Source of the DNA: Octopus sinensis
Lineage: Eukaryota
Direction: 5' to 3'
Assembly (NCBI RefSeq): GCF_006345805.1
Contig: NC_043006.1
Location: 40,920,001-40,984,000, forward strand
Length of the DNA: 64,000 bases
In this document: piece after piece, positions 7,510-50,469 of the stretch
How the letters are laid out: the number at the start of each line of letters is the position of its first letter
Position numbering within the stretch: position 1 is the first letter of the stretch
Notes under the pieces: model-generated
Seen by the model: the letters and a program-made list of their open reading frames with translations, nothing else
What the model was told of the DNA's origin: nothing
Databases searched by the model: none
Made by a program: the position numbers and the translations under genes

Positions 7510-7679
7510 CATCAGTTGGTTGTTATCTCTTCATTGGCTGTCACTGAAGATTTCACATGTTGATTATGTAACTTATAGTCGTTTTTTGTCAATGAAACGT
7601 ACGTAAGTTGATGTAACAAAACAAAAACAATCGTTTTTGTTTTATTTTACATACACACACTCTCTCATACACACACGTC

Positions 7680-21820: not shown

Positions 21821-21905
21821 TTCAGCTGAGGAAAACGGTTTCTTTATACTAATATAGTGTACTCATTAATCAATTAAAATATTCTTTAGAAACGGCCGTA
21901 ATGGA
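21821..21905 (+). ncRNA. Degenerate hammerhead motif
   Basis: TTCAG-CTGAGGA...GAAA-C-GGCC-G-TA-ATGGA: intact core and palindromic stem III loop; stems I and II decayed. Confidence 0.5.
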
Positions 21906-42217: not shown

Positions 42218-42254
42218 CGCTGATGACGGGTCAATACCCAGAAACATGAGTCCG
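42218..42254 (+). ncRNA. Hammerhead motif at the tip of a long imperfect hairpin
   Basis: CG-CTGATGA-C-GGGT-CAAT-ACCC-A-GAAA-C-ATGA-G-TC-CG; flanks ~42135-42217 and ~42255-42340 are mutually complementary. Confidence 0.7.
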
Positions 42255-44719: not shown

Positions 44720-45570
44720 GATTGATTGATTGATTCTAGTTTCAGCTTATGAGCTGTGGCCATGCTGGGGCACCGCCATTTGATGTTGCTACTTGGTTTC
44801 ACTTCACGAAAGCTTTCTAGCAACTGCCATTTGGTGCATGAGAGAGTTCGATGCAGCTGCCCTCATCTGCCCCTCCTGCCGTGAAGTTGGTTCATCTGGG
44901 ACACCTGACAGGAAGAGATCCAGCTTCATTTTAAAGACATCTGCATCCACCCTATGCAGGTCTCTCAGGTTCTTCGGGAGGATATTGAAGAGCTGTGGGC
45001 CTCGGAAGCCCAGGCTATCACAGAATCTTGTCCTACATCTTGATGGCAAGTTTGGAGTCCTAGGCACCACGCAGTGGCGCCAGTTCTGGCATTTGCGTAA
45101 CTCTCGATGCCAAAGTTCAGGACACGTCCCTCCAGGATCTTCCAGATGTATATTATGGCATATCTTTCCCGCCTACGCTCCAGGGAATATAGTTTTAATC
45201 TCTTGAGTCTTTCCCAGTAGCTTACATTCTGCATAGAGGCTATCCTCTTCGTGTAGCTACGTTGGATCGCCTCGAGCTCTGTGATCACTTGACACTGGAT
45301 GGTGACCATAACTGAGAGCAGTAGTCAAAGTGGCTTAGGACAAGTGTCCTCCAGAGGCCCATCATGGTTTCTTGTTCTCTTGTTCTAAAGGTTCTGAGGA
45401 TCCATCCGGCCAGTCGTCTACATTTCATTGCCAATTTAGCAACATGTACACGAAAGGTCGCGTCATCACTCATGTAAATACCTAGGTCACGCACTGATTG
45501 TGCCTCTGGGATTGCTATTCCTCCGGGTCCAGTGTATTCATCGGGTATTGCATTTAGTTTTGCATGCTGA
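44720..45570 (-). mobile_element. 5'-truncated CR1-like LINE with intact 3' end
   Basis: VRDLGIYMSDDATF..HV..LAGWILRTF..LSHFDYCSQLWSP / LEAIQRSYTKRI..YWERLKRLKLYSLERRRERY; (ATCA)n tail. Confidence 0.92.
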
Positions 45571-45632
45571 TAGTATATAATATATATATTATATATATAC
45601 ATACACACACACACACACACATATATATTATA

Positions 45633-45664
<32 letters not shown>

Positions 45665-45946
45665 ATTTCAACAATTGAGGGTAAAATTAATTAATTAATT
45701 AATCAATTTCACCAAGTATTCAGTATGCAAAGGGACCATTTAAGGCAAATTCAAATTATTACATTATATAAAAGGGCTTAGTAAAATAAATTACTTTGCC
45801 GCATACTGAACTCGTTAGAAATAGCAGCTAAAAAAACTATTTCTAACACTTAAAGAAAACCTCTCTCATATAGTGTTTGCTCAATTCAACTCAAGAAAGT
45901 ATGAGGGTAGAGATTAAAAAAAAAAAAAATCAAATGCAAAGTTATT

Positions 45947-45999
45947 TGAGTACGTACGTTTCAAGATTAGCCAAAATCGACCCTTCTCTCATCAGCTCA
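45947..45999 (-). ncRNA. Type I hammerhead ribozyme, copy 1
   Basis: Minus strand TGAG-CTGATGA-GAGA...TCTT-GAAA-C-GTAC-G-TA-CTCA. Confidence 0.9.
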
Positions 46000-46494
46000 G
46001 ATGCCCTTGTTTGAATTTGAAAACACTGAAAATGGGAGCATACCCTTTCGGCTTGTTATCGCTTCTGAAGATCTGCTCCAAACTAACAGTGCCAACAAAC
46101 TCAAATATGCAAGAGAAAAATTTCTTCTGCTCTCCCCTTTCCACCAGCGTGGGTTAAAATCAGCAAACACTATGCTTTTTTCGGTAAAATCCGAGACAAT
46201 TAAAGAGAGAGATGAATTATAATTTCAACAATTGAGGGTAAAATTAATTAATTAATTAATCAATTTCACCAAGTATTCAGTATGCAAAGGGACCATTTAA
46301 GGCAAATTCAAATTATTACATTATATAAAAGGGCTTAGTAAAATAAATTACTTTGCCGCATACTGAACTCGTTAGAAATAGCAGCTAAAAAAACTATTTC
46401 TAACACTTAAAGAAAACCTCTCATATAGTGTTTGCTCATTCAACTCAAGAAGTATGAGGGTAGAGACATTAAAAAATCAAATGCAAAGGTTATT

Positions 46495-46546
46495 TGAGTA
46501 CGTACGTTTCAAGATAGCCAAAATCGACCCTTCTCTCATCAGCTCA
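46495..46546 (-). ncRNA. Type I hammerhead ribozyme, copy 2
   Basis: Same motif with a 1-nt deletion inside the stem II region. Confidence 0.9.
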
Positions 46547-47046
46547 GAATGCCCTTGTTTGAATTTGAAAACACTGAAAATGGGAGCATACCCTTTCGGC
46601 TTGTTATCGCTTCTGAAGATCTGCTCCAAACTAACAGTGCCAACAAACTCAAATATGCAAGAGAAAAATTTCTGCTCTCCCCCCCCCTTCCACCAGCGTG
46701 GGTTAAAATCAGCAAACACTATGCTTTTTTCGGTAAAATCCGAGACAATTAAGTAGAGAGATGAATTATAATTTCAACAATTGAGGGTAAAATTAATTAA
46801 TTAATTAATCAATTTCACCAAGTATTCAGTATGCAAAGGGACCATTTAAGGCAAATTCAAATTATTACATTATATAAAAGGGCTTAGTAAAATAAATTAC
46901 TTTGCCGCATACTGAACTCGTTAGAAATAGCAGCTAAAAAAACTATTTCTAACACTTAAAGAAAACCTCTCTCATATAGTGTTTGCTCAATTCAACTCAA
47001 GAAAGTATGAGGGTAGAGACATTAAAAAATCAAATGCAAGGTTATT

Positions 47047-47099
47047 TGAGTACGTACGTTTCAAGATTAGCCAAAATCGACCCTTCTCTCATCAGCTCA
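47047..47099 (-). ncRNA. Type I hammerhead ribozyme, copy 3
   Basis: Same motif. Confidence 0.9.
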
Positions 47100-47595
47100 G
47101 AATGCCCTTGTTTGAATTTGAAAACACTGAAAATGGGAGCATACCCTTTCGGCTTGTTATCGCTTCTGAAGATCTGCTCCAAACTAACAGTGCCAACAAA
47201 CTCAAATATGCAAGAGAAAAATTTCTGCTCTCCCCTTTCCACCAGCGTGGGTTAAAATCAGCAAACACTATGCTTTTTTCGGTAAAATCCGAGACAATTA
47301 AGTAGAGAGAGATGAATTATAATTTCAACAATTGAGGGTAAAATTAATTAATTAATTAATCAATTTCACCAAGTATTCAGTATGCAAAGGGACCATTTAA
47401 GGCAAATTCAAATTATTACATTATATAAAAGGGCTTAGTAAAATTTACTTTGCCGCATACTGAACTCGTTAGAAATAGCAGCTAAAAAAACTATTTCTAA
47501 CACTTAAAGAAAACCTCTCTCATATAGTGTTTGCTCAATTCAACTCAAGAAAGTATGAGGGTAGAGACATTAAAAAATCAAATGCAAAGGTTATT

Positions 47596-47648
47596 TGAGT
47601 ACGTACGTTTCAAGATTAGCCAAAATCGACCCTTCTCTCATCAGCTCA
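47596..47648 (-). ncRNA. Type I hammerhead ribozyme, copy 4
   Basis: Same motif. Confidence 0.9.
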
Positions 47649-48145
47649 GAATGCCCTTGTTTGAATTTGAAAACACTGAAAATGGGAGCATACCCTTTCG
47701 GCTTGTTATCGCTTCTGAAGATCTGTTCCAAACTAACAGTGCCACAAACTCAAATATGCAAGAAAAAATTTCTGCTCTCCCCTTTCCACCAGCGTGGGTT
47801 AAAATCAGCAAACACTATGCTTTTTTCGGTAAAATCCGAGACAATTAAGTAGAGAGAGATGAATTATAATTTCAACAATTGAGGGTAAAATTAATTAATT
47901 AATTAATCAATTTCACCAAGTATTCAGTATGCAAAGGGACCATTTAAGGCAAATTCAAATTATTACATTATATAAAAGGGCTTAGTAAAATAAATTACTT
48001 TGCCGCATACTGAACTCGTTAGAAATAGCAGCTAAAAAAACTATTTCTAACACTTAAAGAAAACCTCTCTCATATAGTGTTTGCTCAATTCAACTCAAGA
48101 AAGTATGAGGGTAGAGACATTAAAAAATCAAATGCAAAGGTTATT

Positions 48146-48198
48146 TGAGTACGTACGTTTCAAGATTAGCCAAAATCGACCCTTCTCTCATCAGCTCA
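48146..48198 (-). ncRNA. Type I hammerhead ribozyme, copy 5
   Basis: Same motif. Confidence 0.9.
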
Positions 48199-48695
48199 GA
48201 ATGCCCTTGTTTGAATTTGAAAACACTGAAAATGGGAGCATACCCTTTCGGCTTGTTATCGCTTCTGAAGATCTGTTCCAAACTAACAGTGCCAACAAAC
48301 TCAAATATGCAAGAGAAAATTTCTGCTCTCCCCTTTCCACCAGCGTGGGTTAAAATCAGCAAACACTATGCTTTTTTCGGTAAAATCCGAGACAATTAAG
48401 TAGAGAGAGATGAATTATAATTTCAACAATTGAGGGTAAAATTAATTAATTAATTAATCAATTTCACCAAGTATTCAGTATGCAAAGGGACCATTTAAGG
48501 CAAATTCAAATTATTACATTATATAAAAGGGCTTAGTAAAATAAATTACTTTGCCGCATACTGAACTCGTTAGAAATAGCAGCTAAAAAAACTATTTCTA
48601 ACACTTAAAGAAAACCTCTCTCATATAGTTTTGCTCAATTCAACTCAAGAAAGTATGAGGGTAGAGACATTAAAAAATCAAATGCAAAGGTTATT

Positions 48696-48748
48696 TGAGT
48701 ACGTACGTTTCAAGATTAGCCAAAATCGACCCTTCTCTCATCAGCTCA
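48696..48748 (-). ncRNA. Type I hammerhead ribozyme, copy 6
   Basis: Same motif. Confidence 0.9.
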
Positions 48749-49069
48749 GAATGCCCTTGTTTGAATTTGAAAACACTGAAAATGGGAGCATACCCTTTCG
48801 GCTTGTTATCGCTTCTGAAGATCTGCTCCAAACTAACATGCCAACAAACTCAAATATGCAAGAGAAAAATTTCTGCTCTCTCTCCTTTCCACCAGCGTGG
48901 GTTAAAATCAGCAAACACTATGCTTTTTTCGGTAAAATCCGAGACATTAAGTAGAGAGAATGTTGAGTTTGTTGGCACTGTTAGTTTGGAGCAGATCTTC
49001 AGAAGCGATAACAAGCCGAAGGGTATGCTCTCCCATTTTCAGTGTTTTCAAATTCAAACAAGGGCATTC

Positions 49070-49122
49070 TGAGCTGATGAGAGAAGGGTCGATTTTGGCT
49101 AATCTTGAAACGTACGTACTCA
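49070..49122 (+). ncRNA. Type I hammerhead ribozyme, copy 7 (predicted cleavage after 49118)
   Basis: TGAG CTGATGA GAGA AGGGTCGATTTTGGCTAA TCTT GAAA C GTAC G TA CTCA. Confidence 0.9.
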
Positions 49123-49617
49123 AATAACCTTTGCATTTGATTTTTTAATGTCTCTACCCTCATACTTTCTTGAGTTGAATTGAGCAAACACTATATGAGA
49201 GAGGTTTTCTTTAAGTGTTAGAAATAGTTTTTTAGCTGCTTTTCTAACGAGTTCAGTATGCGGCAAAGTAATTTATTTTACTAAGCCCTTTTATATAATG
49301 TAATAATTTGAATTTGCCTTAAATGGTCCCTTTGCATACTGAATACTTGGTGAAATTGATTAATTAATTAATTAATTTTACCCTCAATTGTTGAAATTAT
49401 AATTCATCTCTCTCTACTTAATTGTCTCGGATTTTACCGAAAAAAGCATAGTGTTTGCTGATTTTAACCCACGCTGGTGGAAAGGGGAGAGCAGAAATTT
49501 TCTCTTGCATATTTGAGTTTGTTGGCACTGTTAGTTTGGAGCAGATCTTCAGAAGCGATAACAAGCCGAAAGGGTATGCTCCCATTTTCAGTGTTTTCAA
49601 ATTCAAACAAGGCATTC

Positions 49618-49670
49618 TGAGCTGATGAGAGAAGGGTCGATTTTGGCTAATCTTGAAACGTACGTACTCA
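49618..49670 (+). ncRNA. Type I hammerhead ribozyme, copy 8
   Basis: Same motif. Confidence 0.9.
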
Positions 49671-50165
49671 AATAACCTTTGCATTTGATTTTTTAATGTC
49701 TCTACCCTCATACTTTCTTGAGTTGAATTGAGCAAACACTATATGAGAGAGGTTTTCTTTAAGTGTTAGAAATAGTTTTTTAGCTGCTATTTCTAACGAG
49801 TTCAGTATGCGGCAAAGTAATTTATTTTACTAAGCCCTTTTATATAATGTAATAATTTGAATTTGCCTTAAATGGTCCCTTTGCATACTGAATACTTGGT
49901 GAAATTGATTAATTAATTAATAATTTTACCCTCAATTGTTGAAATTATAATTCATCTCTCTCTACTTAATGTCTCGGATTTTACCGAAAAAAGCATAGTG
50001 TTTGCTGATTTTAACCCACGCTGGTGGAAAGGGGAGAGCAGAAATTTTCTCTTGCATATTTGAGTTTGTTGGCACTGTTAGTTTGGAGCAGATCTTCAGA
50101 AGCGATAACAAGCCGAAAGGGTATGCTCCCATTTTCAGTGTTTTCAAATTCAAACAAGGGCATTC

Positions 50166-50218
50166 TGAGCTGATGAGAGAAGGGTCGATTTTGGCTAATC
50201 TTGAAACGTACGTACTCA
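50166..50218 (+). ncRNA. Type I hammerhead ribozyme, copy 9
   Basis: Same motif. Confidence 0.9.
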
Positions 50219-50469
50219 AATAACCTTTGCATTTGATTTTTTAATGTCTCTACCCTCATACTTTCTTGAGTTGAATTGAGCAAACACTATATGAGAGAGG
50301 TTTTCTTTAAGTGTTAGAAATAGTTTTTTAGCTGCTATTTCTAACGAGTTCAGTATGCGGCAAAGTAATTTATTTTCTAAGCCCTTTTATATAATATTAT
50401 ATATATATATATAATATATATATATTATTATATGTGTGTGTGTGTGTGTGTGTGTGGTGTGCGTGTGTG

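What the first reader, a model, noticed from the sequence alone, without database searches (positions are those of the whole stretch)
46825..47311. Unit has nested long-range complementarity, including a helix that competes with the ribozyme
Seen in unit 3, nested inverted pairs: CTCTCTC (46967) / GAGAGAG (~47305), ATAGTGTTTGCT (46976-46987) / AGCAAACACTAT (47260-47271), and ATTTGAGT (47044-47051) / ACTCAAAT (47200-47207). Local stems: TTCAGTATGC (46825) / GCATACTGAA (46907) and TTAGAAATAG (46921) / CTATTTCTAA (46943). The 8-bp ATTTGAGT pairing covers the cleavage-site A and the 3' strand of stem I. Inference: the monomer folds into a compact viroid-like structure in which the hammerhead is switched off, as expected for a stable circular RNA.
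Basis: partly seen in the sequence, partly recalled or inferred. Interest (0 to 1): 0.72.

Follow-up and report, generated by a model that had tools for sequence, protein, structure and literature searches.

The report
Hammerhead repeat folded for twin priming
This is one copy of a 550-base non-coding jumping repeat with a predicted self-cutting RNA motif; its predicted fold is stabler than chance and kept across related copies, the proposed off-switch is not kept, and the best-kept stems instead surround two fixed points where a Penelope-type enzyme likely starts copying a likely circular RNA into the genome as two back-to-back arrays.

Summary
All ten motifs sit at the stated coordinates. 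The ribozyme-sense unit folds as a circle far better than shuffles (z about -6), and inherited substitutions keep the pairs (33 of 51 against 42% expected; private ones 20 of 53). The fold is branched, no more paired than shuffles.

The off-switch fails. The 8-bp helix has probability 0.00-0.07 because its strand pairs locally, stem I forms, helices that long arise in 98% of shuffles, and its pair on the cleavage nucleotide is broken in 17 of 19 relatives. A weak two-pair stem III, favouring dimeric cleavage, is the likelier brake.

The element is a non-LTR retrozyme (3,608 exact ribozyme motifs). Copies sit in (TA)n as head-to-head arms; in 66 of 69 one arm ends at site A, the other at site B. 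A resident Penelope-like element shows the same rule (16 of 17). Cleavage, circles and expression are untested.

The parts
45661..48959 (-). Left arm of the insertion: six ~550-nt units, ribozyme sense on the minus strand; outer (3') end at site B
48963..50395 (+). Right arm: 2.6 units, ribozyme sense on the plus strand; outer (3') end at site A
48957..48965 (.). Head-to-head junction of the two 5'-truncated arms (monomer positions 290 and 399, 3 extra bases)
45574..45664 (.). (TA)n target microsatellite, left flank
50388..50433 (.). (TA)n target microsatellite, right flank
47035..47110 (-). Type I hammerhead motif of unit 3: stem I 5' strand 47099-47096, CUGAUGA 47095-47089, stem II, GAAA 47062-47059, two-pair stem III with palindromic GUAC loop, predicted cut between 47051 and 47050, stem I 3' strand 47050-47047
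   Evidence: no Rfam hit
47200..47207 (-).
47111..47206 (-). Local rod-like hairpin upstream of the ribozyme, closed by the 10-bp helix that sequesters the blocker
   Evidence: helix 5: 90% of cells paired, 3 pairs changed on both sides
46976..47271 (-). 12-bp long-range helix (47271-47260 with 46987-46976); inner 9 pairs conserved, outer 3 variable
46965..47313 (-). 9-bp long-range helix (GAGAGAG/CTCTCTC plus 2 pairs); with the 12-bp helix it forms the waist between the ribozyme lobe and the priming lobe of the circle
   Evidence: C-G, U-G and U-A seen at one pair
46920..46953 (-). TTAGAAATAG hairpin, 11 pairs, 100% of cells paired, one G-C/A-U exchange
46824..46917 (-). TTCAGTATGC stem, 11 pairs, 99.5% of cells paired, C-G/U-A exchange in 8 of 19; encloses site A
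46861..46876 (-). Site A (monomer position ~182-190): fixed 3' end point of one arm; mostly unpaired in the predicted circle
46786..46819 (-). AU-rich hairpin between sites A and B
46767..46771 (-). Site B (monomer position ~280-284): fixed 3' end point of the other arm; loop of a small hairpin

Best explanation
The unit is a non-coding, hammerhead-bearing tandem repeat (a non-LTR retrozyme) whose RNA is predicted to fold into two lobes, one holding an unblocked ribozyme and one holding two exposed AU-rich sites at which a Penelope-type reverse transcriptase likely starts copying it into (TA)n DNA. Steps: (1) inferred: an array is transcribed into multimers. (2) predicted: neighbouring ribozymes cut as a double hammerhead, pairing their palindromic stem III loops; monomers are then ligated to circles (by analogy to PMC7229834). 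(3) predicted: the lone ribozyme in the circle is mostly idle because stem III has only two pairs and the core mispairs with its own palindrome, not because of the long-range 8-bp helix. (4) inferred: a Penelope-like RT-endonuclease nicks both strands of a (TA)n tract and primes one DNA end at site A and the other at site B of one RNA. (5) inferred: each cDNA runs round the circle for a random length (up to about 24 turns) and the two 5' ends are joined, often by microhomology. Shown directly: the head-to-head layout, the two fixed end points used one each, the (TA)n flanks, read-through of cut sites, and selection on the pairs.
For: Fold: z about -6; z -3.5 to -6.1 in 5 other subfamilies, 0 of 25 shuffles each. 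Selection: on shared branches away from the window copy 33 of 51 changes keep the pair against 0.416 expected (p 7e-4), on private branches 20 of 53 (p 0.76); Fisher p 0.007; covariation score 0 of 500 shuffles (this control ignores relatedness). The stretch holding A and B changes at 0.13 per site on shared branches, the catalytic core at 0.16, the rest at 0.52. Layout: head-to-head in 35 of 40 best-match insertions and 34 of 51 in a positional sample; A+B ends in 33 of 35 and 33 of 34; (TA)n on both sides in 34 of 35 and 32 of 34. The two truncation points are unrelated (offsets uniform, KS p 0.78), the A arm is longer in 26 of 66, and 33 of 66 junctions overlap by 1-24 bases. No other arm is closer than the partner arm in 18 of 23 resolvable positional-sample insertions. 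114 of 138 arms cross a cut site, 58 cross two or more; one arm has about 24.5 units. Units within an array are closer (0.2-1.0%) than units between loci (1.2-2.3%). A young resident RT + GIY-YIG element (781 aa) follows the same rule: of 28 loci picked for a tail-ending arm, 17 have a head-to-head partner arm, ending at the other site in 16 of 17 (counted by hand from the rows). A purified Penelope-like protein cuts AT-rich DNA, extends both strands, starts at two internal RNA sites and is predicted to be a dimer (PMC11167929). Double hammerhead costs 6.4 kcal/mol against 15.8 for two single cores.
Against: No cleavage, circle or expression evidence was obtained. All structures are nearest-neighbour predictions without tertiary contacts or pseudoknots. 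Rfam gives no hammerhead hit. The one Penelope-like family tested shares no sequence with the unit (local score matched by 147 and 138 of 200 shuffles) and its two sites lie about 45, not 100, bases apart, so the actual partner is unidentified. Arm lengths are weakly correlated (rho 0.33, p 0.007, two samples pooled). In 5 of 23 and 9 of 28 insertions another locus's arm is closer than the partner arm (assembly errors blur the young set). Only 11 of 138 pairs show a change on both sides, not more than shuffles give (160 of 500). Stem I is predicted open in 7 of 18 units and in one of two sets of nascent transcripts until 100 bases past the cut. An uncleaved multimeric transcript would also give read-through arms.
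Confidence: 0.65

Rival explanations
1. One reading: in the circle the 8-9-bp long-range helix covers the cut site and stem I and switches the ribozyme off, as in viroids and plant retrozymes.
For: The match is real and placed on the cut site. It reaches p 0.33-0.40 in 3 of 18 units and 0.07 in one window copy. Folding kinetics after ligation are not modelled.
Against: p 0.00-0.07 in the window's copies, at most 0.03 in 15 of 18 units, 0.0 in 12 of 12 nascent transcripts; chance-level length; 0 compensatory changes and key pairs broken in 17 and 10 of 19; absent from the RNAalifold consensus, which keeps stems I and II. The G-to-A change that breaks it turns a G-U into A-U in the competing local helix.
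Confidence: 0.1
2. The same two-site priming acts on long uncleaved linear transcripts of existing arrays; ribozyme activity and circles are minor, and the fold serves only RT recognition.
For: In the lizard element, ribozyme mutants insert normally and unprocessed RNA is the main substrate in vitro (PMC11167929). Eight of nine frog retrozyme dimers did not cleave in vitro (bioRxiv 10.64898/2026.07.22.740005). No RNA evidence here.
Against: Arrays are internally uniform yet differ between loci, which points to a monomer bottleneck; 5'-truncating copies of linear arrays should shrink over time, but a 24-unit arm exists; the catalytic core is conserved except at the free position 7 and the NUH base.
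Confidence: 0.2
3. The inverted arm arises by self-priming (snap-back) on one cDNA or antisense RNA, as proposed for Penelope elements, or by later DNA-level inversion and unequal crossing-over; the repeat is then essentially a satellite.
For: PMC3846280 (passages) proposes self-priming from palindromes at inverted junctions; 11 of 66 junction offsets are within 30 bases, 2 are zero. Li et al. favour local satellite-like expansion.
Against: 7.3 of 66 such offsets are expected by chance and the offsets are uniform; either arm can be the longer; both arms exceed one unit in 27 of 66. DNA-level events would not fix one end at A and the other at B in 66 of 69 cases nor keep RNA pairs on shared branches only. 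Long-read fold-back artefacts are unlikely: the flanks differ, and contigs of other runs show loose (TA)n ends at about A and B (table 7).
Confidence: 0.05

Closest known systems
Metazoan non-LTR retrozymes (Cervera and de la Pena 2020, PMC7229834, parts 2-4 of 6 read, supplement not seen; Li, Clavereau and Pollet 2026, bioRxiv 10.64898/2026.07.22.740005, parts 1-3 of 5 read, supplements closed)
   Same: Low-GC (34%) tandem units, one type I hammerhead each, thousands of dispersed copies, several coexisting subfamilies, stable predicted circle that leaves the ribozyme unblocked.
   Different: Unit of 541-566 nt is above the 150-450 bp of the 2020 paper but inside the 51-972 bp of the 2026 preprint. 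Neither text, as read, describes head-to-head arms, two fixed end points, (TA)n targeting or a conserved priming lobe.
Insertions of endonuclease-bearing Penelope-like elements (PMC8557442 and PMC3846280, passages; PMC11167929, main text)
   Same: Inverted 5'-truncated copy head-to-head with the main copy, a 'tail' at one end only, microsatellite targets, two internal start sites.
   Different: No ORF; tail about 100 nt instead of 30-40; arms run to many units; no sequence likeness to the one resident family tested.
Dimer-dependent type I hammerheads of newt, axolotl and other animals (PMC4209133 passages; PMC7229834)
   Same: Helix III of 1-2 pairs capped by a palindromic loop, weak as a monomer, rescued in tandem.
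   Different: Activity untested here; the cut triplet is GUA in the young subfamily and GUU in the larger ones.
Avsunviroidae viroids and plant LTR retrozymes (blocked ribozyme; as summarised in PMC7229834)
   Same: Small, structured, predicted circular RNA with a hammerhead.
   Different: Here there is a DNA copy, a ribozyme motif was found on one strand only, the fold is no more paired than shuffles, and no conserved blocking helix exists.
L1 twin priming (recalled; listed, not read)
   Same: Two primed ends joined 5' to 5' with microhomology.
   Different: Here both start points are fixed internal sites, there is no poly(A), and both arms can be multimeric.

Membership tests
Non-LTR retrozyme | Tandem units with a type I hammerhead in each | tested here: met
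   9 cores in the array at ~550-nt spacing
Non-LTR retrozyme | Non-coding, low GC, no LTRs | tested here: met
   GC 0.34; longest stop-free stretch 124 and 98 aa in two units; no terminal direct repeats; PBS and PPT not searched
Non-LTR retrozyme | Many dispersed genomic copies | tested here: met
   608 + 3000 exact motif matches, reversed-pattern control 0
Non-LTR retrozyme | Stable predicted circle, ribozyme usually unblocked | tested here: met
   stem I open in 7 of 18 units of all subfamilies
Non-LTR retrozyme | Self-cleavage of the transcript | not testable with these tools
   bench assay needed
Non-LTR retrozyme | Expression as linear and circular monomers | tested here: inconclusive
   only contigs of runs guessed to be RNA were available
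Non-LTR retrozyme | Target-site duplication, when present, longer than 4 bp | tested here: inconclusive
   cannot be read inside (TA)n flanks
Type I hammerhead ribozyme | CUGANGA, GAAA and NUH in order with three helices | tested here: met
   core kept across 19 units, position 7 varies U/C/A, H is A or U; one copy has a core change; stems
Type I hammerhead ribozyme | Match to an Rfam hammerhead model | tested here: not met
   0 hits at gathering score; none at E up to 10
Type I hammerhead ribozyme | Loop 1 - loop 2 tertiary contact | not tested
   stem I has an internal loop and a distal helix; contacts not modelled
Viroid or plant-retrozyme type blocked circle | Ribozyme covered by a complementary strand in the stable fold | tested here: not met
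Viroid | No DNA form; RNA-to-RNA replication | tested here: not met
   thousands of genomic DNA copies; RNA replication not testable
Penelope-like element (autonomous) | RT plus GIY-YIG ORF | tested here: not met
   no ORF in the unit
Penelope-mobilised insertion | Head-to-head inverted 5'-truncated copy | tested here: met
   35 of 40 and 34 of 51; one tail-to-tail and one three-part case
Penelope-mobilised insertion | Tail extension at one end only | tested here: met
   A+B in 66 of 69 two-arm insertions
Penelope-mobilised insertion | Microsatellite target | tested here: met
   (TA)n at 74 of 75 and 81 of 84 outer 3' ends
Penelope-mobilised insertion | Homology to the pLTR of a resident element | tested here: inconclusive
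   none to the one family tested in depth or in 46 GIY-YIG stretches, apart from 2 separate inserted fragments; only 150 of 5029 candidates were scored

The most novel reading that the evidence does not exclude
The conserved lobe is a bipartite start platform: a dimeric Penelope-type enzyme grips one RNA circle, primes both ends of a cut (TA)n at two structure-defined loops 100 nt apart, and runs two rolling-circle reverse transcriptions at once. This would explain the 'tail at one end' and the inverted copies of all endonuclease-bearing Penelope elements, replace the self-priming model, and give the first genomic footprint that animal retrozyme circles are the templates, in a 550-nt substrate ready for reconstitution.
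Probability: 0.45. Interest if true: 0.72.

Novelty: new member of a known kind. Interest (0 to 1): 0.5.

Why it matters
How Penelope-like elements make their tandem and inverted insertions is called undefined in PMC8557442, and how animal retrozymes are mobilised is left open in PMC7229834 and the 2026 preprint. This family offers thousands of insertions with a one-of-each end rule, unrelated truncation points and a selected RNA domain around the two start sites, so twin priming and rolling-circle copying become directly testable. My paper searches listed no paper that describes the two-arm rule for retrozymes, but the library omits most subscription journals, I did not see the supplements, and other agents of this scan have noted the same layout.

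Tried and rejected
Rfam: no family at gathering score in the window, nothing relevant at E up to 10 around one ribozyme. Expression: no RNA holder on record among 22 listed runs; contigs of runs guessed to be RNA cover the unit but also cover neighbouring repeats, and contigs cannot show level, strand or ends, so nothing is concluded. Covariation inside the window's array: useless, units are 97-99% alike and differ mostly by homopolymer indels; diverged subfamilies were fetched instead. Partner search: one GIY-YIG search and one follow-up gave a young element with the same insertion rule but no sequence likeness and no hammerhead found by my pattern in its 3' region; the automatic tally came out empty and the rows were counted by hand; tandem-type loci and one likely duplicate were left out before that count. 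A pile-up of 5' truncations at the cut site (8 of 132) was not claimed, since several are artefacts of splitting hits at the query end. The bacterial promoter scan is irrelevant to this host and gave chance level. Look-ups by place and by sequence in earlier findings were empty. Rows dropped: one insertion at a contig edge; the 18 short insertions were kept out of the main counts because the query selects for their shape; the tree used 48 of 73 locus groups (14 of 39 young ones); arm comparison used 51 of 69 insertions with at least 150 shared positions.

Full report
Setting. The finding lies in unit 3 of an array at 45661-50395: six ~550-nt units in one orientation, then 2.6 inverted, between two (TA)n tracts. 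Each unit has CUGAUGA ... GAAAC GUAC GUA then CUCA, a type I hammerhead motif, on the minus strand in the left arm and the plus strand in the right arm. Rfam does not detect it; the call rests on the motif, its helices and its conservation pattern. The genome is a 2.72-Gb microsatellite-rich animal assembly; I did not determine the host.

Observation. Folded as circles, two ribozyme-sense monomers give z -5.96 and -6.14 against 100 dinucleotide shuffles each; the antisense gives -4.4 and -5.1. The paired fraction (0.61-0.63) equals that of shuffles, so the fold is stable and branched, not unusually compact. Four perfect stems of 10 bp or more occur against 0.3 expected (0 of 1000), while a stem of 8 bp or more occurs in 97.6% of shuffles. 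The 7-bp, 12-bp and both 10-bp pairings have probabilities of 0.98-1.0.

The off-switch. The ATTTGAGT/ACTCAAAT helix has probability 0.00-0.07 in five monomers at 37 and 20 C. Its 5' strand pairs with CAAATTCAAA (0.89-0.98), closing a local rod that is transcribed before the ribozyme, and proximal stem I forms (0.72-0.98 at 37 C; 0.49 in one copy at 20 C). Forcing the helix costs 1.7-4.4 kcal/mol; it is absent in 12 of 12 nascent transcripts. In 19 natural units down to about 85% identity it is 78% paired, with no compensatory change; the pair on the cut nucleotide is lost in 17 of 19 because most subfamilies have GUU (3000 non-A against 608 A motifs). The alignment consensus keeps stems I and II and the local rod. 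Against my reading, it reaches 0.33-0.40 in 3 of 18 units and stem I is open in 7 of 18. The monomer is still predicted mostly idle: a complete core has about 0.5% because stem III has two pairs and the core mispairs with its palindrome, whereas a double hammerhead in a two-unit transcript is 9.4 kcal/mol cheaper than two single cores. This matches the dimer control described in PMC4209133 (passages) and the statement in PMC7229834 that most animal retrozyme circles are not self-blocked.

Selection on the fold. 211 full units fell into 12 clusters. On a tree of 48 units, changes at paired sites on shared branches kept the pair in 40 of 58 cases, 33 of 51 after removing the path to the window copy (expected 0.416, p 7e-4), while private changes did so in 20 of 53, as chance predicts. 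Both-side exchanges occur in the TTAGAAATAG hairpin, the TTCAGTATGC stem and the GAGAGAG helix, though pairs with such changes (11 of 138) are not above that tool's shuffle. The outer three pairs of the 12-bp helix often break.

What that domain frames. In 39 best-match and 49 positionally sampled stretches, insertions are head-to-head in 35 of 40 and 34 of 51; several 'single' arms show a partner too short for BLAST. Outer 3' ends fall at monomer position 180-197 (site A) or 275-286 (site B) in 73 of 75 and 84 of 84 cases, nearly always against (TA)n, and two-arm insertions use one of each in 33 of 35 and 33 of 34. Site A lies in the loop region of the TTCAGTATGC stem, site B in a small hairpin loop; both are largely unpaired, and a third TATA, half buried in the 12-bp helix, is never an end. 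The 9-bp and 12-bp helices form the waist between this lobe and the ribozyme lobe. The inner truncation points are unrelated, either arm may be longer, half the junctions overlap by a few bases, and the partner arm is usually the closest relative. Arms read through cut sites (114 of 138) for up to about 24 units.

Mechanism. These are the marks of endonuclease-bearing Penelope-like elements: inverted 5'-truncated copy, tail at one end, microsatellite target (PMC8557442; PMC3846280), and two internal start sites with both strands cut and extended in vitro (PMC11167929). The genome holds a young RT + GIY-YIG family in (TA)n that obeys the same rule in 16 of 17 two-arm insertions, without sequence likeness to the unit. 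I therefore infer twin priming at A and B on one RNA, likely a circle, since arrays are uniform inside and differ between loci. Uniform junction offsets argue against the published self-priming model for most insertions. Cleavage, circularity, expression and the partner enzyme remain untested (searches were inconclusive).

Standing. The element is a new member of the non-LTR retrozymes on sequence features; two defining features need the bench. I formed the two-arm reading before seeing earlier notes (stated); one search then showed the same layout noted by other agents in this genome and others, which is not independent support. Interest 0.5.

Noticed in passing
window 47120-47111 with 46861-46852: A second perfect 10-bp partner for the strand that sequesters the blocker lies just past site A. 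It is perfect only in the young subfamily (two mismatches in the others) and would cross the blocker helix as a pseudoknot; predicted share is at most about 5%.
   Followed up: partly
window 47051; genome-wide: The larger subfamilies have GUU at the cut site, which lengthens the stem III palindrome to 10 bases and could pair the cut nucleotide with the core A; the young subfamily has GUA.
   Followed up: partly
L129-L144, L215-L264 (e.g. G000:C19:35.62 Mb): Young Penelope-like family, 98-100% alike, 781-aa RT + GIY-YIG ORF with a Cx4Cx2C linker (Neptune-like by the motif described), repeated TGACGTC and GATTGG motifs and a TATA-like box in its 3' repeat, no hammerhead found by my pattern; two-arm insertions with a ~45-nt tail.
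   Followed up: partly
L245-L246 (G000:C2:27922037-27935966): Single insertion with a 24.5-unit arm ending at B and a 0.7-unit arm ending at A.
   Followed up: yes
L069-L098: Many ~400-bp two-arm insertions that hold only the A-B lobe and no ribozyme; they look like microsatellite-associated inverted-repeat elements.
   Followed up: partly
L184-L185 (G000:C1:29141-29150 kb): An A-ending arm and a B-ending arm lie about 5 kb apart, perhaps one insertion split by another element.
   Followed up: no
window 44760-45570: Broken LINE-like reverse-transcriptase 3' fragment on the minus strand, directly left of the (TA)n flank; family not determined.
   Followed up: partly
window 7544-7605, 21826-21900, 42220-42252: Isolated CTGANGA...GAAA strings, two with palindromes before GTA; none folds as a clear hammerhead.
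   Followed up: partly
window 47242-47230: CCCACGCTGGTGG block is nearly invariant across subfamilies though outside the ribozyme and the A-B lobe; role unknown, possibly a promoter element.
   Followed up: no
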